Below are positions 4,924 to 49,867 of a stretch of 64,000 nucleotides of DNA, one piece after another. The stretch is from Candidatus Micrarchaeia archaeon. GTDB taxonomy: Archaea; Micrarchaeota; Micrarchaeia; Anstonellales; Anstonellaceae. The position numbers were made by a program, and so were the translations under genes. Where the stretch lies: contig JBAZLL010000002.1 of assembly GCA_041650255.1 (NCBI GenBank), positions 38,932 through 102,931 on the forward strand, given 5' to 3'. The first letter of the stretch is position 1; each line of letters begins with the position of its first letter. The notes below the pieces were generated by a model. That model was not told the DNA's origin and made no database searches. It was given only the letters and a program-made list of their open reading frames with translations.

Positions 4924-6867
4924 CTACTCCACATTCCCTTTCTTCTCAACAATCTCCTTTAAGTGTGAAATAAATTCCTCTGCCTTCAAATTGTATTGCT
5001 TGCCGTTTCTCTCCCTTATCTGAAGCTCGCCGCCATCCTGCTCTTTCTTTCCAATCACGAGCATATATGGAATTTTCTGCAATTGCGCGTCCCTTATCTT
5101 CGCATTAATGGTTTCCGTCTTTTCATTGACAAAAACCCTCAATCCGTTCTCCTGTAATTTGTGTGCGAATATATTCGCAAAATCCAAATATTCGTCGGAC
5201 ACCGGAAGAAGCGCGACCTGCACCGGCGAAATCCAAATCGGGAATTTACCCGCATAATGCTCAATCAATATGCCCATGAATCTCTCCATTGAGCCGTAAA
5301 TCGCGCGATGAATCGCAACCGGAATATGGGATTGTCCGTCAGCCCCTTCATATTTTAGACCAAAGCGCATAGGCATCTGAAAGTCCAGCTGGCATGTGGA
5401 AAGCTGCCATATTCTTCCAATCGCATCCTTTACTTTAAAGTCAATTTTCGGACCATAAAATGCGCCATCTCCGGCGTTTATTTCATATTTCATGCCCACT
5501 TTGTCAAGTGCATTTCCAAGCGATTTTTCAGCCTTGTTCCAAGTGTCAATTTCGCCCATGAAACTTTGCGGGCGGGTTGAAAGCTCGGCAGTATATTCAA
5601 ATCCGAAAGTTTTGAGCACAACATCAATCAGCTCAAGCACGCCGATTACTTCCTGTTCAATTTGTTCCTGCGTGCAAAAGATGTGCGCATCATCCTGCGT
5701 AAATGCCCTTACTCTAAACATTCCGGAAAGAACGCCGGAAAGCTCGTGCCGATGCACAAGTCCGAACTCCGCCATTTTAATCGGCAGGTCCCGATAGCTT
5801 CGGGTGGAATTTGCAAATACGAGCATGTGCCCCGGGCAATTCATCGGCTTTACGCCGTAATCCTGCTCGTCAATTTTTGTGAAATACATATTGTCTTTGT
5901 AATGGTCCCAATGCCCCGATGTGTGCCAAATATTGCTGTTAACAATAATCGGGCTTTTTACCTCTACATATCCGCGCTTTTTGTGCTCCGCACGCAAAAA
6001 CGCCTCAAGCTCGTTTCTAATAATCGCCCCGTTTGGAAGCAGGAAAGGCATTCCGGGCGCAAGCTCACTAAACATTATGAGTCCGAGCTCCTTGCCGATT
6101 TTGCGATGGTCGCGTTTTTCGGACTCTTCAAGCCTTTTGAGATAATCGTCAAGTTCTTTTTTTGTGGCATAGGCAGTGCCATAGATTCTCTGCAACTGGT
6201 CGTTTTTGGCATCTCCTCTCCAATATGCACCAGCGACCTTCATCAGCTTGAACGCGCCTGCCTTTGCCGTAGATGGCAAATGCGGGCCGGAACACAAATC
6301 AAAAAATTCTTTTGCATCTTTCGGGCTTTTGGGAGTTTTTTCATTATAATAAATTGAAATTGCCTCTTCTTGTGGCAATGCGTTGATTACTTCTCTCTTG
6401 TACACATTGTCCGAATAAAGCTCAAGCGCTTTTTTCCTGTCAACCTCAACGCGCACAAATGGCTGGTCTTCTTCAACAATTTTCTGCATCTCATTTTCAA
6501 TCTTTATCATGTCGTCCGGAGTGAATGGCTGTTTTCTTGCAACGTCATAATAAAATCCTTCTTCAATAACCGGTCCGATAGTGAGTTTTGCATCCGAAAA
6601 AAGCCTTTGTATCGCCTGCGCCATAATGTGCGCGCTTGAATGTCTAACCACTTCAAGCCCTTCGGGAGTTTGCGGTTTTATCAAAATAAGTTTCGCGCCA
6701 TCGTGCAATTTTGCACTCAAATCAGCCATCTTGCCATCTATTTTCGCGGCAACAACTGCGCGTGCAAGTCCCGGACTTATTTTCATCGCCGCATCATGCG
6801 CGCTTGAGCCCGCACTCATCTCAAGCGGTTTGCCGTCCGGCAATATGATTTTGATACTCCCAGTCAT
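4924..6867 (-). CDS. thrS: Threonyl-tRNA synthetase, bacterial type (TGS + editing domain)
   Basis: TGS N-terminus, RHSSAH and DLCSGPH editing motifs, RDHRKIG, KPMNCPGH, FYGPKID, HRAIYGSMERF; likely start MTGSIK at 6867. Confidence 0.97.
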   Translation of the reverse strand: MTGSIKIILPDGKPLEMSAGSSAHDAAMKISPGLARAVVAAKIDGKMADLSAKLHDGAKLILIKPQTPEGLEVVRHSSAHIMAQAIQRLFSDAKLTIGPVIEEGFYYDVARKQPFTPDDMIKIENEMQKIVEEDQPFVRVEVDRKKALELYSDNVYKREVINALPQEEAISIYYNEKTPKSPKDAKEFFDLCSGPHLPSTAKAGAFKLMKVAGAYWRGDAKNDQLQRIYGTAYATKKELDDYLKRLEESEKRDHRKIGKELGLIMFSELAPGMPFLLPNGAIIRNELEAFLRAEHKKRGYVEVKSPIIVNSNIWHTSGHWDHYKDNMYFTKIDEQDYGVKPMNCPGHMLVFANSTRSYRDLPIKMAEFGLVHRHELSGVLSGMFRVRAFTQDDAHIFCTQEQIEQEVIGVLELIDVVLKTFGFEYTAELSTRPQSFMGEIDTWNKAEKSLGNALDKVGMKYEINAGDGAFYGPKIDFKVKDAIGRIWQLSTCQLDFQMPMRFGLKYEGADGQSHIPVAIHRAIYGSMERFMGILIEHYAGKFPIWISPVQVALLPVSDEYLDFANIFAHKLQENGLRVFVNEKTETINAKIRDAQLQKIPYMLVIGKKEQDGGELQIRERNGKQYNLKAEEFISHLKEIVEKKGNVE

Positions 6868-6899: not shown

Positions 6900-6938
6900 A
6901 GCCCTTTTCTTTCTTTTTGCGAAAAGAAAAAAAGGTCT
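6900..6938. repeat. Pyrimidine/purine palindrome (dispersed family copy)
   Basis: AGCCCTTTTCTTTCTTTTT-GCG-AAAAGAAAAAAAGGTCT; ends match the copy at 48277-48307 read on the minus strand. Confidence 0.65.
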
Positions 6939-34166: not shown

Positions 34167-34829
34167 CTAAAATCCGAAAACTCCGCTTCCGATAAACGCA
34201 ATTGCAAAAAGAGCAAGCCAGATTTTCCAGCTCCATGCAAACACTTTTGAGCCGTCAAGAGGGAAAATCGGCAGTAAATTAAACAATGCCAAAAACATGT
34301 TTACCTGCGTTCCCATAAGCATTACATATGCCGCCGTTTCGCCATAAGGAATTACTGTTCCAAATGCCCCAATTCCGACGATTAAAACCGCAAGCGCGAA
34401 AAAGAGAAGCCCGAGCAAAATATTTGTAATCGGTCCGGCTGCGGAAATTATCCCGTTTTCCTTTTGGCTTATTTGCCGGTTGCCATAAATCATTACTGCG
34501 CCCGGTGCAAGAAATAGCGGGAACATTCCCCATCCCACAAGCTGTGGAATTATCGCAAGTCCAAGCATGAGCACAAGACCCCAAACCCATGCTTCAAAGC
34601 GGGCGCGCAATCCGAAGCGAATGGCGGTATATTTATGTGCAAGCTCATGGAGCAAAAACCCGCTTCCGACAGTAATGCCAAACGCAATCATCAAAAATAC
34701 AAATTCCGAAGGGCTGATTTGTATTCCCCCGCTTGCAAACGTAAGCGAGAGTGCGATTGCAACTATCGACGTAAGAATGTTTGACCATTCATCCAAATCA
34801 ATGCGAAAGCCGGGTGGAATAAGCGCCAT
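34167..34829 (-). CDS. Small site-2 protease (M50)
   Basis: LHELAH, APGAV, AAGPITN, NLLPIFPLDG. Confidence 0.92.
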   Translation of the reverse strand: MALIPPGFRIDLDEWSNILTSIVAIALSLTFASGGIQISPSEFVFLMIAFGITVGSGFLLHELAHKYTAIRFGLRARFEAWVWGLVLMLGLAIIPQLVGWGMFPLFLAPGAVMIYGNRQISQKENGIISAAGPITNILLGLLFFALAVLIVGIGAFGTVIPYGETAAYVMLMGTQVNMFLALFNLLPIFPLDGSKVFAWSWKIWLALFAIAFIGSGVFGF

Positions 34830-34836
34830 AAAACCA

Positions 34837-34906
34837 CTAACCAATTAACCTCTAACTAATTAACTGCTAACCAATTTACAACCAACTAATTAACCATTAA
34901 CCAATT
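34837..34906. repeat. Degenerate 15-bp tandem repeat x5
   Basis: CTAACCAATTAACC-like units at 34837, 34852, 34867, 34882, 34897. Confidence 0.75.
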
Positions 34907-39063: not shown

Positions 39064-39151
39064 GAAAAATTTAACGAGTTTATATATTTTAAATCAACCC
39101 TTCATAAAGAAAGAAAGATAAAGCATGAAATCCTTAAGTTATACTATTCAT

Positions 39152-39314
39152 GCCAACGTCGCATAACCTGGTAGTGCGTCAGTCTCGAAAGGCTTTTCTT
39201 TTCTCTCGCCAGAGAAAAGAAAACCCTGGAAAAGAAAAGAGAGGGATGAGCCTTCCTTTTTTCCGAGATAACTGATCCCTTACGGGATTGTAGGTTCAAA
39301 TCCTGCCGTTGGCG
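39152..39314 (+). tRNA. tRNA-Ser(CGA) with 80-nt intron (39190-39269) at 37/38
   Basis: Acceptor GCCAACG/CGTTGGC, anticodon arm TCAGT-CT-CGA-A...A-ACTGA, long variable arm, GGTTCAAATCC, G73; BHB with CTCG/CGAG helix and AAA/ATA bulges. Confidence 0.93.
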
Positions 39315-39399
39315 TTATATTTTCGTCTTTTGCCGCATTTTGGTTCGCCTTCTACAAAATGTTTATATGTTTTATCTCTTGAAGTGTTTCGGTGGTAAT

Positions 39400-42345: not shown

Positions 42346-42610
42346 ACCTATACCGTCCGCTAAGGGTTTGTAAACTAAATATTGTATTTTTTTCAGGATT
42401 TCTGAGCCCGAGTCTTCTCGGGTTTATTCCCTTAGTATCTTCTCTCTTTGATGCAAACTGCTTATAAATCGTTGCAAGGCTATTTTCCATTATCCTCGTT
42501 TATAAATACCGTTCTTAGCGATTTTGTGTTATTAGCTAAAAGGTTGTTTAATAAATCAGAAATAATAAATTGTATTCCTATGCCCCCAATCAAGGGCATT
42601 AGCATTTTCT

Positions 42611-42716
42611 AACGCCCCTGTAGCTCCCCCTTTTTCTTTCTTAGAAAGAAAGAAAAAGGTAGGTTTCCAAAAAGAAAGAATACTAATGAAACTATATTCC
42701 AACGCCCCTGTAGCTC
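42611..42716 (+). repeat. 16-bp direct repeat of the tRNA-Thr 5' end flanking a 74-bp palindrome/mirror insert
   Basis: AACGCCCCTGTAGCTC at 42611 and 42701; 14-bp hairpin 42629-42659; purine mirror 42646-57 / 42669-80. Confidence 0.9.
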
Positions 42717-42775
42717 AGCGGTAGAGTGCTTGTTTCGTAAACAAGATGTCGCGGGTTCAAATCCCGTCGGGGGCT
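42704..42775 (+). tRNA. tRNA-Thr(CGT)
   Basis: GCCCCTG/CGGGGGC acceptor, CTTGT-TT-CGT-AA-ACAAG, GGTTCAAATCCC, U73. Confidence 0.95.
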
Positions 42776-42780
42776 TAAAC

Positions 42781-43344
42781 CTAAAGCACAAATTTGACCC
42801 ATTCGCAATTTCTAAGTCTGTATGCCCACAGCTTCGGCGGTTCTATTTTTGCAACCTCATTAATCATTGCAATTGCAAGTATGCCATGCGCAAACGCGGC
42901 AACTTTTTTTCCCGCATATTTTTTTCCAATCACCGCAAGGGCTTTTTTCGCCCTTTTTGTAATTTGCGCCCAGTTTTCCCCGCCCGGCACCTTTTTTAGA
43001 AAATGCGATTTTTGCCCGTTTTCATAATCAAAAAAATAAGATGGAAATTCACTTCTGAGCTTCAGGGCGCTATGCCCCGTCCAGTCTCCCAAATCGTGCT
43101 CTGCCAGCAAATCCAAATACTCAATTTTCATATTATACTTCTTGGCAAGATAATATGCAGTTCTGCGCGCCCGCTTCATGGGGGAAGATACAATTACGTC
43201 AGGTTTTTCATTCCAAGAAGCCGCAAGCGCTTTTGCATCCTTCACACCTTTGGAAGTAAGACCGACATCGCGCCGACGTCCATTAAGTATATGAGACCGG
43301 TTTCCGCCTGCGCGTGCATGACGAATTATGAAAACTTCAGCCAT
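42781..43344 (-). CDS. Histidine phosphatase (phosphoglycerate mutase family)
   Basis: FIIRHA, SSPMKRARRTA, EHDLGDW.G, PGGEN, FAHG. Confidence 0.92.
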   Translation of the reverse strand: MAEVFIIRHARAGGNRSHILNGRRRDVGLTSKGVKDAKALAASWNEKPDVIVSSPMKRARRTAYYLAKKYNMKIEYLDLLAEHDLGDWTGHSALKLRSEFPSYFFDYENGQKSHFLKKVPGGENWAQITKRAKKALAVIGKKYAGKKVAAFAHGILAIAMINEVAKIEPPKLWAYRLRNCEWVKFVL

Positions 43345-48017: not shown

Positions 48018-48039
48018 TGTTATTTCTTTTTTTTTGGAA

Positions 48040-48165
48040 CGGACCCGGTGAGATTTGAACTCACGACCTTTGTCTTGCTCCGTTTTTAATTAACTTTTTT
48101 CTATTTTCTAAAAAGAAAAAAGTCATTAGGAGGACACTGCTCTATCCAAGCTGAGCTACGGGCCC
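48040..48165 (-). tRNA. tRNA-Arg(CCT) with 51-nt intron (48076-48126) at 37/38
   Basis: GGGCCCG/CGGGTCC acceptor, GTGTC-CT-CCT-A...A-GACAA, GAGTTCAAATCTC; BHB with CTCC/GGAG helix. Confidence 0.93.
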
Positions 48166-48386
48166 GTGATAATAATATTGCAAATAGGGTATTTATATTC
48201 AAAACGCTTTCTTTTTGGGGTTACCCATATCCTCAACCGCCGCGCGGTTGGGGAGCTTGAAGCCGAAGGCTTCATGAGACCTTTTTCTTTTGAAAAGAAA
48301 AAGGGCTGGGGAGCTGAGCTACGGGCCCGTGATAATAATATTGCAAATAGGGTATTTATATTCAAAACGCTTTCTTTTTGGGGTTA
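48149..48386 (-). repeat. 75-bp perfect direct repeat (promoter + first 17 nt of tRNA-Arg) flanking an 88-bp triple-hairpin insert
   Basis: 48149-48223 identical to 48312-48386. Confidence 0.95.
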
Positions 48387-48448: not shown

Positions 48449-49867
48449 ATGGGCAGGGTTATTCAGGTCAAGCCGGCATTATTCCTATTGTTTTTCCTCT
48501 GCACATTTACTCTCTCTTTTGCATTTACCGTCGAACCAGTGGATTTGCTGGTTAATGTGTATGATGCAAACGGGCATGTCGTTCCCGATGTTCACATAAT
48601 CGCCGAATACACCCAATTTGCAAATAACAGCATCTATGTCAACAATCTAAGCGGAACAACTGATATTGGCGGGCAATGGGAAACAACAATCAAATTCGCA
48701 GAAAATCTCACCCCGACCGAGTACATTTCCCTCGAAGCGTATGCGCCTTATTGGTCATCCGGCATAATACGCGCGAGAATACCCTCAAGCGGGCAAAGAA
48801 AAGTTTTTGCAAATTTTACAATTCCGTACGAATTTGAAACCTCCCGTGTGCAGGTTTTGGATTCGTCTTCAAAACCGCTAAAAGGGGCGAAAGTCCAGCT
48901 CATGAGCCCGATATTCATGGAGAAGGGAACCGGTTCAAACGGAATTGTTTTTCTAAGGTTTCCAAAAGGTCTTCCAATTAACGGATGGGTGGAATATTCC
49001 GGCTTAAAACAGGAGTTCAAATTTTCTTCTCAGGAAAATCAATCTTCTCTGCCTTTGGTGACTATTCGAGTTCCGTTCAAAAATCCAAAACCAACCGATA
49101 GTCAGGGTCGTTTTAATTGGACGGTGCAAATTTTTGATTCGAACATGAAGGCACTATCGTCGGTTCCATTCACTGTATCACAAAAAGATTATTCCTCAAA
49201 ATATATTTCCGACTCGTACGGTTTTATTTTTTTCAACGATATTCCATATGCCGAGTTAAACTTGTCTTGGTTGCTTTACGATTATCCATACACTAAATCA
49301 TTTGACGTATCCGCAAACCCGCCCGAGCGCATAGTCTCCGAACAATTACTGCAAATTCACCCGCCATCTGTAATCGGTTTGGGCGAATCTTGCTATCGCA
49401 TCGAAATAAATATCACCGACCCCCGTGTCGGGGTATTAAAACAGGTTATCGCCCGGGCTGAAGATAACAACGAAACGCTTGCTCTCTCGCTTGACCAAAA
49501 TCAGTCGTTCAACCAGACGCAAATTACATTTTATCGCATTTTCTGCGTGTCCGACGACACCAACTTTGACATCGTGGCTTCAAGTCCCTACGAAAACGCA
49601 TCTGTAAAAATCCGGCTTTTAAAAAGCAAATATGCCCCTCTTCCGCAAACAAGTGGTGTAGAAGAAGTGCCTGTTCCCCCCGAAGTTGTTGAAAGACTTG
49701 AAGAGGAGAAAAAGCTTGAGATGATAGTCATTCTCATCGAAATTCTTGTGCTTCTTGCAGTCGTATATCTTATACTGCGGTTTAACAAGTCCGCACTATA
49801 TTTCTTCCAGTCGATAATACGCTATCTTTATTCCAATCTTCAATCCGTATTTAAGAAAAAGCATTAA
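48449..49867 (+). CDS. Secreted, C-terminally anchored surface protein with repeated beta-sandwich units
   Basis: Signal peptide; three V.V.D.....P(L) units (VNVYDANG, VQVLDSSSKPL, VQIFDSNMKAL); C-terminal TM. Confidence 0.75.
   Translation: MGRVIQVKPALFLLFFLCTFTLSFAFTVEPVDLLVNVYDANGHVVPDVHIIAEYTQFANNSIYVNNLSGTTDIGGQWETTIKFAENLTPTEYISLEAYAPYWSSGIIRARIPSSGQRKVFANFTIPYEFETSRVQVLDSSSKPLKGAKVQLMSPIFMEKGTGSNGIVFLRFPKGLPINGWVEYSGLKQEFKFSSQENQSSLPLVTIRVPFKNPKPTDSQGRFNWTVQIFDSNMKALSSVPFTVSQKDYSSKYISDSYGFIFFNDIPYAELNLSWLLYDYPYTKSFDVSANPPERIVSEQLLQIHPPSVIGLGESCYRIEINITDPRVGVLKQVIARAEDNNETLALSLDQNQSFNQTQITFYRIFCVSDDTNFDIVASSPYENASVKIRLLKSKYAPLPQTSGVEEVPVPPEVVERLEEEKKLEMIVILIEILVLLAVVYLILRFNKSALYFFQSIIRYLYSNLQSVFKKKH

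What the first reader, a model, noticed from the sequence alone, without database searches (positions are those of the whole stretch)
42611..42716. Duplicated tRNA-Thr 5' end encloses a second, sequence-divergent triplex-type element
Seen: a 16-bp repeat (AAC + tRNA nt 1-13) brackets 74 bp holding CCTTTTTCTTTCTT/AAGAAAGAAAAAGG (14-bp stem) and AAAAAGAAAGAA (42669-80), the exact 12-nt mirror of 42646-57, across a GG...CC spacer. The tract sequence differs from the Ser-intron copy yet both symmetries hold, and the spacer clamp swaps (CC..GG versus GG..CC). This looks like compensatory change across three strands.
Basis: seen in the sequence. Interest (0 to 1): 0.85.

Follow-up and report, generated by a model that had tools for sequence, protein, structure and literature searches.

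The report
Mirror-tract hairpin element beside tRNA-Thr
The 90-bp unit in front of tRNA-Thr is a repeat-flanked copy of a small element found across tiny DPANN archaea, mostly as tRNA introns, whose three tracts change together exactly as an intramolecular triple helix would require, although triplex formation itself is untested.

Summary

The window is a Micrarchaeota (DPANN archaeon) chromosome. All three of its tRNA genes carry such elements:
- tRNA-Ser has one as a canonical intron.
- tRNA-Thr has one as a repeat-flanked insert at its 5' end.
- tRNA-Arg has a degenerate intron copy, plus a 163-bp unit with a perfect 75-nt repeat at its 5' end.

Pattern scans recovered about 80 relatives in Micrarchaeota, Aenigmatarchaeota and Iainarchaeota. 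They occur as introns, as 3' trailers, and as repeat-flanked inserts upstream of genes, once in front of a protein gene.

In 40 copies with perfect stems (22 distinct tracts), the three strands read T-A-A or C-G-G at 395 of 405 positions. The third tract usually ends where the stem ends. Swapping third tracts between copies never reached the observed fit (0 of 100,000). So three-strand covariation is real. It matches the triad code of an antiparallel purine-motif triplex, and Watson-Crick pairing cannot explain it.

Physical triplex formation is untested, as is the question of RNA versus DNA. The tRNA stub is best read as a duplicated target or recombination scar, not a working tRNA piece or an intron exon. 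I found no published description of this family.

The parts
42604..42626 (+). Distal direct repeat (DR1): 10 nt of 5' flank plus the tRNA-Thr stub (nt 1-13 at 42614-42626). The exact 16-bp core is 42611-42626.
   Evidence: (D9)
42627..42642 (+). C-clamp plus pyrimidine arm Y1. The arm CCTTTTTCTTTCTT is at 42629-42642.
42643..42645 (+). Hairpin loop AGA.
42646..42659 (+). Purine arm R1, AAGAAAGAAAAAGG. It pairs by Watson-Crick with Y1 over 14 bp.
42660..42668 (+). Spacer TAGGTTTCC. It looks like a degenerate form of the CCCC-N-GGGTTC spacer of the type-2 family.
42669..42680 (+). Third tract R2, AAAAAGAAAGAA, the exact mirror of 42646-42657.
42681..42693 (+). A+T-rich tail (TACTAATGAAACT) between R2 and the proximal repeat. 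It is the presumed source of the promoter for the intact gene. This is inferred; similar ATATTA-type tails occur in L030, L197, L201 and L178.
   Evidence: by eye; not tested
42694..42716 (+). Proximal direct repeat (DR2): 5' flank plus the first 13 nt of the functional tRNA-Thr.
42704..42775 (+). Intact, intron-less tRNA-Thr(CGT).
   Evidence: 69.1 bits
39190..39269 (+). Sister copy: the 80-nt canonical (37/38) intron of tRNA-Ser(CGA). Y1 is at 39193-39206, R1 at 39211-39223, spacer CCCTGG, R2 at 39230-39242, and an imperfect Y2 at 39251-39264.
48149..48386 (-). Sister locus at tRNA-Arg(CCT). Perfect 75-nt direct repeats lie at 48149-48223 and 48312-48386; each holds TAACCCC, the R2 tract AAAAAGAAAG, the promoter region and tRNA nt 1-17. 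They enclose 88 nt: a pyrimidine/purine hairpin at 48280-48304 and a nested two-hairpin insert at about 48231-48273.
   Evidence: (D1)
48039..48166 (-). tRNA-Arg(CCT) with a 51-nt canonical intron. The intron holds an imperfect pyrimidine/purine hairpin and only a degenerate third tract.

Best explanation
The 90-bp unit is an intergenic, repeat-flanked copy of a small structured element of about 60-90 nt that is widespread in DPANN archaea.

The conserved core of the element, on the tRNA-sense strand, has three parts:
- a pyrimidine arm (Y1);
- its Watson-Crick purine partner (R1);
- after a 6-15-nt linker, a second purine tract (R2) that is R1 read backwards.

[quoted passage not shown] Some follow the tRNA 3' end directly. 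Some, like this one, sit just upstream of a gene, between two copies of that gene's 5' end.

Shown:
- The family exists and is multi-copy.
- It occupies different sites in orthologous tRNAs and carries nested inserts.
- Y1, R1 and R2 covary position by position (T-A-A, C-G-G).

Inferred:
- The covariation is maintained because the sense strand folds into an intramolecular purine-motif triple helix. Y1 and R1 form the duplex, and R2 lies antiparallel to R1 in the major groove. The strand would be RNA, or the non-template single-stranded DNA.
- The element spreads between sites.
- The 16-23-bp repeat (AAC plus tRNA nt 1-13, with flank) is a duplicated target or recombination scar made when the element arrived. 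The stub is non-functional, and the intact gene is now expressed from the A+T-rich tail of the insert.
For: Anatomy at the stated coordinates.

Family:
- The same stub, hairpin, spacer, R2, tRNA-Thr architecture occurs in relative L030 (84% EF-2 identity), with different flanking genes and orientation.
- Homologous upstream modules occur at L112 Thr-TGT, L201 Thr-TGT, L087 Ser-TGA, L121 Ser-GGA and L094 Thr.
- The type-1 scan gave 71 hits, about 50 of them in DPANN archaea. The type-2 scan gave 31 hits, 30 of them DPANN.
- A pattern-free finder gave 53 distinct triples: 22 sense introns, 5 trailers, 3 upstream, 2 antisense, and 21 with no tRNA called.

Covariation:
- 20 curated copies: mirror run sum 224 of 243 nt against 172 in direct orientation. 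Re-pairing R2 among copies gave a mean of 178 and a maximum of 201, with 0 of 100,000 reaching the observed value.
- 30 type-2 copies: 282 against a re-pairing mean of 242.5 and a maximum of 263, again 0 of 100,000.
- 40 perfect-stem copies with 22 distinct tracts: triads T-A-A 329, C-G-G 66, other 10. The mirror run equals the stem length in 35 of 40.
- A-run length matches in all three strands: 4/4/4, 5/5/5 or 6/6/6 in 41 of 51 copies.
- Orthologous Ser introns (window against L100) changed all three tracts together.
- Trailer copies without a fourth strand keep the mirror at 9 of 9 to 14 of 14 positions, with one 11 of 12.

Insertion-like behaviour:
- Orthologous tRNA-Thr(CGT) genes without the stub exist: L001, L002, L084, L086, L092 and L101.
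- The L197 copy is flanked by a 17-nt repeat in front of a protein gene.
- Nested inserts split R1, R2 or the spacer precisely.

Assembly agreement.
Against: - No physical evidence that a triplex forms. All-RNA purine-motif triplexes are experimentally disputed (review PMC7583470).
- In a large GC-rich subtype of the type-1 introns, the third tract keeps only the A-run. It then continues as the Watson-Crick complement of the inner stem (3/3, 4/4, 7/8), not its mirror. The mirror rule is therefore restricted to pyrimidine/purine stems.
- In the Ser intron the minimum-free-energy fold pairs part of R2 with a downstream pyrimidine tract.
- Many type-2 introns have CCCCGGG after R2, which could enclose R2 in a hairpin loop (by eye).
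- The flanking repeats vary from 11 to 75 nt. There are no terminal inverted repeats and no enzyme candidate, so target-site duplication is not established.
- No hits in viral contigs.
- Copies are related by descent, so the permutation tests overstate independence.
Confidence: 0.55

Rival explanations
1. Scar of an integrative genetic element. A plasmid or virus with a pNOB8- or SSV-type integrase recombined with the 5' part of tRNA-Thr, duplicating the att core (the stub). Nearly all of the element was later deleted, leaving its end hairpin (a transcription stop) and its outward promoter.
For: Direct repeats of a tRNA 5' part flanking inserted DNA are the known signature of archaeal integration. 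A tRNA-Thr 5' fragment upstream of the intact gene was explained this way in Caldiarchaeum (PMC3293823). The region between SOD and the His-phosphatase gene around tRNA-Thr varies between relatives. The stub of L030 differs from its own gene at 2 positions and resembles the window's allele, as hybrid att sites do.
Against: The insert is only 67-74 nt, with no integrase or cargo. The same 60-90-nt module recurs with stubs of different tRNAs in different genomes, never with a larger element. The same module is a bona fide intron elsewhere. One copy is flanked by a repeat of a ribosome-binding region, not of a tRNA (L197). No copy was found in IMG/VR viral contigs. This reading does not explain the three-strand covariation.
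Confidence: 0.15
2. Decayed partial duplicate of an intron-containing tRNA-Thr gene. The stub is what remains of a 5' exon and the module is that copy's intron. The intact intron-less gene downstream is a second copy or a replacing allele.
For: The tract of the window's upstream module is almost the same as the canonical intron of tRNA-Thr in L030, L096 and L167 (CTTTTTCTTTCT[T/C] / [A/G]AGAAAGAAAAA / AAAAAGAAAGA[A/G]). L121 shows partial upstream copies of exon 1 (28-31 nt) plus the intron module of tRNA-Ser(GGA). Stub ends (nt 11-26) fall in the D-arm, where introns of this family do occur (L108, L134, L146, L171, L177, L185).
Against: The repeat includes 10 nt (Thr) to 58 nt (Arg) of 5' flank, so it was copied as DNA together with upstream sequence. 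The clamps and spacer of the stub-associated modules (CCCC...GG...GGTTC) belong to a different subtype from the 37/38 Thr introns (AAGGC...CCCTGG). A precise loss of nt 14-37 would be needed repeatedly.
Confidence: 0.12
3. Functional insulator cassette with no triplex. The T-rich hairpin stops transcription coming from upstream in both directions. The purine tract plus the A+T-rich tail form the BRE/TATA promoter of tRNA-Thr. The mirror symmetry is incidental to low-complexity (AAAG)n-like sequence.
For: Oligo-T tracts are archaeal termination signals (general knowledge). Copies directly after tRNA 3' ends are positioned like terminators. ATATTA-like motifs follow R2 in the intergenic copies. 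A purine tract also precedes the tRNA-Ser and tRNA-Arg promoters in the window.
Against: The distance from R2 to the tRNA start varies from 19 to 47 nt, so R2 is not at a fixed promoter position. More than 20 copies sit inside tRNA introns, where a terminator plus promoter would be harmful. The member-specific mirror match cannot arise from low complexity (0 of 100,000 re-pairings and 0 of 2,000 letter shuffles). Direct-orientation similarity never exceeds mirror similarity.
Confidence: 0.08
4. The unit is a non-canonical BHB intron at position 13/14 of tRNA-Thr. Transcription starts upstream of the stub, and the 90 nt (module plus second copy of nt 1-13) are spliced out.
For: Micrarchaeota have a broad-specificity epsilon2 splicing endonuclease (PMC3239211, abstract). 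D-loop introns of this family exist. The minimum-free-energy fold of 42611-42775 pairs the stub, not the proximal copy, with the 3' acceptor strand.
Against: No bulge-helix-bulge can be drawn. Only the self-complementary AGCU of the two copies can pair (4 bp), without 3-nt bulges or flanking helices (my inspection). The gene downstream is complete and needs no splicing. There is no TATA-like sequence about 26 nt upstream of the stub.
Confidence: 0.03
5. The constraint acts on double-stranded DNA. R1-spacer-R2 is an H-DNA-forming mirror repeat that extrudes under supercoiling. It affects transcription or replication at tRNA genes and provokes local duplications, including the stub. The Y1/R1 hairpin is a separate RNA-level requirement.
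For: A homopurine mirror repeat is the classical H-DNA motif (general knowledge). DNA purine-motif triplexes are well established, unlike RNA ones (PMC7583470). No G.U pair occurs among about 395 stem pairs of pyrimidine/purine copies, whereas GC-type stems have many. Trailer copies may lie beyond the transcript end.
Against: Orientation is almost always sense relative to the tRNA (30 sense against 2 antisense among copies with a called tRNA). A duplex structure would not require this. All three tracts lie on one strand, with R2 ending where the stem ends, which fits a single-strand fold. Nested inserts that split R1 or R2 at the DNA level are tolerated.
Confidence: 0.07

Closest known systems
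Archaeal bulge-helix-bulge tRNA introns that spread between tRNA genes and positions (Thermoproteales 'intron transposition', Fujishima and colleagues; recalled from memory; review PMC4090602 listed but not read)
   Same: Families of sequence-related introns occupy canonical and non-canonical positions of many tRNA genes in one lineage. Presence and absence differ among orthologous tRNAs. A broad-specificity splicing endonuclease is known in the same phylum (epsilon2 EndA of Micrarchaeum, PMC3239211).
   Different: To my knowledge no three-strand (hairpin plus mirror tract) core has been described for those introns. The Thr copy is not an intron at all: it is an intergenic insert flanked by repeats. 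Copies also occur as 3' trailers and once before a protein gene.
tRNA 5'-fragment direct repeats left by integrative elements (Caldiarchaeum tRNA-Thr(GGU) fragment plus a 1.8-kb element, PMC3293823; SSV- and pNOB8-type att sites)
   Same: A 5' fragment of the tRNA lies upstream of the intact gene as a direct repeat. The paper links the event to intron gain.
   Different: Here 67-74 nt lie between the repeats, against 1.8 kb with a recombinase gene. The insert is a recurrent structured module rather than element cargo.
H-DNA mirror repeats and synthetic intramolecular pyrimidine-loop-purine-loop-purine triplex oligonucleotides (general knowledge)
   Same: The order (Y, loop, R, loop, mirror R), the antiparallel register and the triad code (T-A*A, C-G*G) are the same.
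   Different: Those are DNA constructs or genomic repeats with no conserved family. Here a natural, covarying family lies inside transcribed tRNA introns.
ENE / MALAT1-type RNA triple helices (review PMC7583470)
   Same: A genomically encoded A-rich tract lies near a U-rich structured element. The possible role is protecting an RNA end.
   Different: ENEs clamp one A-rich strand between two U-rich strands (U.A-U, parallel). Here one U-rich strand faces two A-rich strands, which implies the opposite (purine, antiparallel) motif.
MITE-like non-autonomous insertion elements with target-site duplications
   Same: [quoted passage not shown] They nest within one another.
   Different: No terminal inverted repeats. 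Repeat length is not fixed (11-75 nt). No partner transposase is known. Most copies are spliceable introns without flanking repeats.

Membership tests
Archaeal BHB tRNA intron | Interrupts the mature tRNA sequence, so that the exons must be joined. | tested here: not met
   The tRNA-Thr gene at 42704-42775 is contiguous and scores 69.1 bits. The element lies upstream of it.
Archaeal BHB tRNA intron | A bulge-helix-bulge motif (two 3-nt bulges around a 4-bp helix) at both boundaries. | tested here: not met
   For the Thr unit only an AGCU/AGCU 4-bp pairing is possible, without bulges or flanking helices (inspection). In the Ser copy the exon GUCUCG pairs with the intron 3' end CGAGAU as expected.
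Archaeal BHB tRNA intron | Homology to elements that are introns elsewhere. | tested here: met
   Same core as the introns of the window's tRNA-Ser, L030/L167/L125 Thr, L100 Ser and more than 20 type-2 introns.
Integrative-element att duplication at a tRNA gene | A direct repeat of part of the tRNA gene flanks the inserted DNA. | tested here: met
   16-bp exact and 23-nt 91% repeat.
Integrative-element att duplication at a tRNA gene | An integrase or recombinase gene, or element cargo, between the repeats. | tested here: not met
   Only 67-74 nt lie between the repeats, with no credible ORF. No viral-contig copies.
H-DNA / intramolecular purine-motif triplex | A homopurine tract with its mirror image, plus a complementary pyrimidine strand. 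| tested here: met
   42629-42642, 42646-42659 and 42669-42680.
H-DNA / intramolecular purine-motif triplex | The triad code is kept when the sequence changes (T-A*A, C-G*G). | tested here: met
   395 of 405 triads in 40 copies with 22 distinct tracts. Re-pairing tests gave 0 of 100,000.
H-DNA / intramolecular purine-motif triplex | Physical formation of the three-stranded structure. | not testable with these tools
   The folding tools model Watson-Crick and G.U pairs only. Needs melting experiments and chemical probing.
ENE-type U.A-U RNA triple helix | Two U-rich strands clamp one A-rich strand. | tested here: not met
   There is one U-rich and two A-rich strands. No second U-rich tract follows R2 in the Thr copy.
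Transposon / MITE | A target-site duplication of characteristic length. | tested here: inconclusive
   Flanking repeats are present but range from 11 to 75 nt: 16-23 (Thr), 75 (Arg), 14 (L201), 17 (L197), 19 (L030), 54 (L094).
Transposon / MITE | Terminal inverted repeats and a partner transposase. | tested here: not met
   The element ends (CCCC... and an A+T-rich tail) are not inverted repeats. No transposase is nearby.
Split or permuted tRNA gene | The fragment is needed to build the mature tRNA. | tested here: not met
   A complete gene is present next to the stub.
Any Rfam family | Match at the family's gathering score. | tested here: not met
   Only tRNA reaches its threshold in 42500-42800. 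All other matches are far below.

The most novel reading that the evidence does not exclude
DPANN archaea harbour a mobile family of tRNA introns and inserts whose conserved core is a natural intramolecular purine-motif (A*A-U, G*G-C) triple helix formed by RNA. This would be the first such structure in biology. The triplex would be required for the element's persistence or spread, for example by protecting the excised intron or trailer, or by guiding insertion. Insertion next to gene 5' ends would generate the duplicated stubs.
Probability: 0.3. Interest if true: 0.92.

Novelty: new variant of a known kind. Interest (0 to 1): 0.8.

Why it matters
If the three-strand covariation reflects a real fold, this family offers many natural sequence variants of a purine-motif triplex. 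The existence of that structure in RNA is still disputed. The family would therefore make the question directly testable, with built-in compensatory mutants.

The family also gives a concrete system for studying how archaeal tRNA introns move and how tRNA genes become fragmented. The same module is seen as an intron, as a trailer, as a nested insert and as a repeat-flanked intergenic insert.

For annotation, default tRNA finders miss two of the three tRNA genes in this window. Stubs like this one should not be annotated as pseudo-tRNAs of independent origin.

Tried and rejected
- BHB intron at position 13/14: no motif can be drawn.
- Simple tandem duplication of promoter, tRNA and trailer followed by internal deletion: the sequence after the stubs does not resemble the 3' flanks of the intact genes, and the Arg unit is A-B-A, not A-B-A-B.
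- Alternative Watson-Crick pairing of R2 with Y1: it would select for direct, not mirror, similarity. Direct runs never exceed mirror runs.
- R2 as a fixed promoter element: the distance to the gene varies from 19 to 47 nt.
- Low-complexity or chance origin: shuffles and re-pairing tests rule it out.
- Viral or mobile-element carrier: two scans of viral contigs gave 0 hits.
- Known RNA family: none in Rfam.
- Same-species empty site: not obtained. Exact-protein look-ups returned only contigs identical to the window. The first look-up failed because I used the wrong start codon.
- A uniform triad rule for the GC-rich intron subtype: it failed. There the third tract beyond the A-run is the Watson-Crick complement of the inner stem.
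Full report
**1. What is at the coordinates**

- AACGCCCCTGTAGCTC occurs at 42611-42626 and at 42701-42716. It occurs nowhere else in the window, even allowing 2 mismatches, and 0 matches are expected in shuffles.
- The repeat extends to 23 nt at 91% identity, 42604-42626 and 42694-42716. It therefore includes 10 nt of 5' flank.
- The second copy is the start of an intact tRNA-Thr(CGT) at 42704-42775.
- Between the copies lie, in order: CCTTTTTCTTTCTT (42629-42642), AGA, AAGAAAGAAAAAGG (42646-42659), TAGGTTTCC, AAAAAGAAAGAA (42669-42680) and an A+T-rich tail.
- The first two tracts form a perfect 14-bp hairpin. The third is the exact reverse of 42646-42657.
- No such hairpin-plus-mirror triple appears in 100 dinucleotide shuffles of the window. 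Only 1 of 66 arrangements of the third tract's letters is the mirror.

The locus is identical in an ENA MEGAHIT contig of 337 kb and in a Logan contig of run SRR8542065. Nothing points to misassembly.

**2. Organism and the other tRNA genes**

The window encodes CDC48, triose-phosphate isomerase, superoxide dismutase, EF-2 and similar proteins. Its EF-2 is up to 87% identical to Micrarchaeota MAGs. The window is therefore a chromosome of a DPANN archaeon.

With intron search switched on, ARAGORN finds two more tRNA genes, and Rfam confirms both.
- tRNA-Ser(CGA), 39151-39315, has an 80-nt canonical intron. It carries the same design with another tract: CTTTTCTTTTCTCT / AGAGAAAAGAAAA / CCCTGG / AAAAGAAAAGAGA.
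- tRNA-Arg(CCT), 48039-48166 on the minus strand, has a degenerate intron copy.
Perfect 75-nt repeats (48149-48223 and 48312-48386) contain tRNA nt 1-17, the promoter region and a third-tract-like AAAAAGAAAG. They enclose 88 nt with a pyrimidine/purine hairpin (48280-48304) and a nested two-hairpin insert.

All three tRNA genes of the window are thus associated with the element.

**3. Relatives**

L030 (84% EF-2 identity) has the same order upstream of tRNA-Thr: a 19-nt stub, the hairpin, CCCCAGGGTTC, the purine tract, an A+T-rich tail and then the gene. Its flanking genes and the orientation of the tRNA differ.

Its tRNA-Thr also has a canonical intron. The three tracts of that intron are almost those of the window's upstream element, and they differ together at one position (C/G/G against T/A/A).

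Other orthologous tRNA-Thr(CGT) genes have no stub: L001, L002, L084, L086, L092 and L101.

Further stub-plus-module copies precede tRNA-Thr(TGT) (L112, L201), tRNA-Ser(TGA) (L087), tRNA-Ser(GGA) (L121) and tRNA-Thr (L094).

**4. A large family**

- A scan of one genome per species with AAGGCTTTT..AAAACYCTGGAAA gave 71 hits. About 50 were in Micrarchaeota and other DPANN MAGs; the rest were scattered bacterial hits taken as chance.
- A scan with the spacer of the stub-type module (..AAAG.CCCC.GGGTTCAAA) gave 31 hits. Thirty were in Micrarchaeota, Aenigmatarchaeota, Iainarchaeota/Diapherotrites or unnamed archaea.
- Most copies are tRNA introns at position 37/38, in the D-loop or in the T-loop.
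- Five copies follow the discriminator base directly, as 3' trailers.
- Several MAGs hold 3-5 copies in different tRNAs.
- A pattern-free finder recovered 53 distinct triples: 30 in sense orientation relative to a called tRNA, 2 antisense (nested inside long introns) and 21 where ARAGORN called no tRNA.
- Nested about-52-nt two-hairpin inserts split R1, R2 or the spacer precisely. The L096 intron equals the L030 intron once its insert is removed.
- One copy (L197) lies between two copies of a 17-nt stretch that contains the ribosome-binding site of a protein gene.
- Neither pattern occurs in IMG/VR viral contigs, and no Rfam family matches.
- Literature searches found no description of such a family.

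**5. Three-strand covariation**

- In 20 curated pyrimidine/purine copies, the longest run shared by R2 and reversed R1 sums to 224 of 243 nt, against 172 in direct orientation. Re-assigning R2 among copies gives 178 +/- 5 (maximum 201; 0 of 100,000 reach 224). Shuffling letters within R2 gives 140 +/- 6.
- In 30 type-2 copies the sum is 282, against 242.5 +/- 4.3 on re-pairing (maximum 263; 0 of 100,000).
- In 40 copies with perfect stems of 7-15 bp and 22 distinct tracts, the position-by-position triads (Y1, R1, R2) are T-A-A 329, C-G-G 66 and other 10. Most of the 10 come from the copy with a nested insert.
- In those 40 copies the mirror run equals the stem length in 35. The purine run of R2 usually stops where the stem stops.
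- The lengths of the terminal T-run, A-run and A-run agree (4/4/4, 5/5/5 or 6/6/6) in 41 of 51 type-1 copies.
- Trailer copies that lack any fourth, pyrimidine strand keep the mirror (9 of 9 to 14 of 14, one 11 of 12). The relation is therefore with the hairpin, not with a second hairpin.

Copies are related by descent, so these tests are not true probabilities. Even so, the many different tracts, each matched in all three strands, require repeated concerted change.

Templated DNA synthesis yields direct or inverted copies, not a mirror copy. Watson-Crick pairing of R2 with Y1 would favour direct similarity, not mirror similarity. Selection on a three-stranded relation is the explanation left.

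T-A*A and C-G*G, with R2 antiparallel to R1, is the triad code of the purine-motif triplex. The order Y-loop-R-loop-R is the order used in synthetic intramolecular triplexes (general knowledge).

**6. Limits of the triplex reading**

- Nothing here shows that the structure forms.
- The almost constant sense orientation and the location in introns argue for a single-strand fold: RNA, or the non-template DNA strand.
- Evidence for RNA purine-motif triplexes is mixed (PMC7583470).
- Pyrimidine/purine stems contain no G.U pair among about 395 pairs, whereas the stems of the GC-rich subtype contain many. This fits either an extra constraint from the third strand or a DNA-level fold. The stems were selected for perfect Watson-Crick pairing, which biases the count.
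- In the GC-rich subtype only the A-run follows the mirror rule. The third tract then continues as the Watson-Crick complement of the inner stem and enters a second hairpin.
- In the Ser intron part of R2 can pair with a downstream pyrimidine tract.
- Other geometries allowed by the same symmetry cannot be excluded. One is Y1 RNA acting as a Hoogsteen strand on the R2 duplex. Another is a pyrimidine-motif triplex on the antisense strand. A third is H-DNA.

**7. The stub**

Partial copies of tRNA 5' or 3' ends next to the intact gene are common in these loci.
- 5' stubs of 9-31 nt are followed at once by a hairpin. This is either the pyrimidine/purine module or a second kind of small hairpin (TTGAACG..CGTTCAA).
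- The repeats often include upstream flank.
- No BHB can be drawn for the Thr unit, and the downstream gene is complete. It is therefore neither an intron nor a split gene.
- The known precedent is an att-type duplication by an integrating element (PMC3293823). Here, however, the insert is a recurrent 60-90-nt module with no cargo, and L197 shows the same flanked insertion at a non-tRNA site.

I therefore read the repeat as a duplicated target or recombination scar made when the module arrived, and the stub as non-functional. The mechanism, the variable repeat length (11-75 nt) and the source of the tRNA's present promoter remain open. The A+T-rich tail is the inferred promoter source.

**8. 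Verdict**

- The three-strand compensatory pattern is supported by a family of about 80 relatives.
- The triplex itself, its chemistry and the element's mobility are inferences.
- The family appears to be undescribed.
- It is best classed as a new variant of archaeal tRNA-intron-type elements, with an unprecedented three-strand core.

Noticed in passing
window 48149-48386 (minus-strand tRNA-Arg locus): Perfect 75-nt direct repeat, spaced 163 nt, holding the tRNA-Arg 5' 17 nt plus its promoter region. It encloses a pyrimidine/purine hairpin and a nested two-hairpin insert. The Logan k=31 contig of the same run ends inside the distal repeat, as expected for a true repeat.
   Followed up: partly
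window 48231-48273; L087 (Ser-TGA upstream region and intron), L096/L103 (Thr intron): A second small element family of about 52 nt. It has two hairpins: CATCGAC..GTCGATG-like, then CCCC(C)AACGC..GCGTTGAGGG. It is found nested precisely inside R1, R2, the hairpin loop or the spacer of the host modules. It could be an intron within an intron.
   Followed up: partly
L001, L002, L006, L086, L087, L100/L145, L104, L112, L120, L125, L141, L165, L173, L175 (downstream of tRNA genes): Partial copies of tRNA 3' ends lie downstream of intact genes, sometimes in tandem arrays (L112: 112-nt units; L100 Ser: three copies). Several look like a T-arm interrupted in the T-loop by an about-50-nt insert (GGTCAAAC..GTTTGAGCC plus a second hairpin), followed by the 3' acceptor strand.
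   Followed up: partly
L123 (Tyr), L161 (Phe), L165 (Asn), L149 and L174 (Ser): A second class of 5' stubs. Each has 9-16 nt of the tRNA 5' end, a small hairpin (TTGAACG..CGTTCAA type) and a repeat of the upstream flank. In L149 and L174 the insert carries an 8-nt perfect complement of the stub, giving a mini-helix.
   Followed up: no
L107-L175 (GC-rich type-1 introns): In the GC-rich subtype the tract after CCCTGG-A5 covaries by Watson-Crick rules with the inner 3' arm of the first hairpin (GCC with GGCC; GGC with GCCC). The 5' arm often has a mismatch or G.U at that position. This suggests an alternative helix or a switch.
   Followed up: partly
window 39151-39315 and 48039-48166: The default tRNA scan reports only tRNA-Thr. 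The two intron-containing genes appear only with intron search or Rfam. Low-stringency ARAGORN calls at 6272-6624, 34812-34885, 48986-49069 and 49123-49211 look spurious.
   Followed up: partly
window 6902-6935: An imperfect pyrimidine/purine hairpin, CCCTTTTCTTTCTTTTT GCG AAAAGAAAAAAAGG, lies between two minus-strand ORFs, with no mirror tract beside it. It is possibly an ordinary intergenic terminator-like hairpin.
   Followed up: no
window 42480-42605 (minus strand): A 41-codon ORF is called as a gene in the public assembly and ends up abutting the distal repeat. It has no family hit. It may be spurious, or it may mark the divergent promoter region of the saccharopine-dehydrogenase-like gene.
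   Followed up: no
L186 and L194 (Diapherotrites-type MAGs): Type-2 modules are inserted after GAAGAGTAGATTTCC(C/G)CTGAA, with a complementary TTTCAGGG further on. No tRNA is called there. This may be an intron in another structured RNA.
   Followed up: no
L180 (tRNA-His intron) and L176 (tRNA-Thr-GGT intron): Long introns (133-150 nt) contain two modules. One is antisense to the tRNA, which in the transcript gives the Y-Y-R (pyrimidine-motif) order.
   Followed up: no
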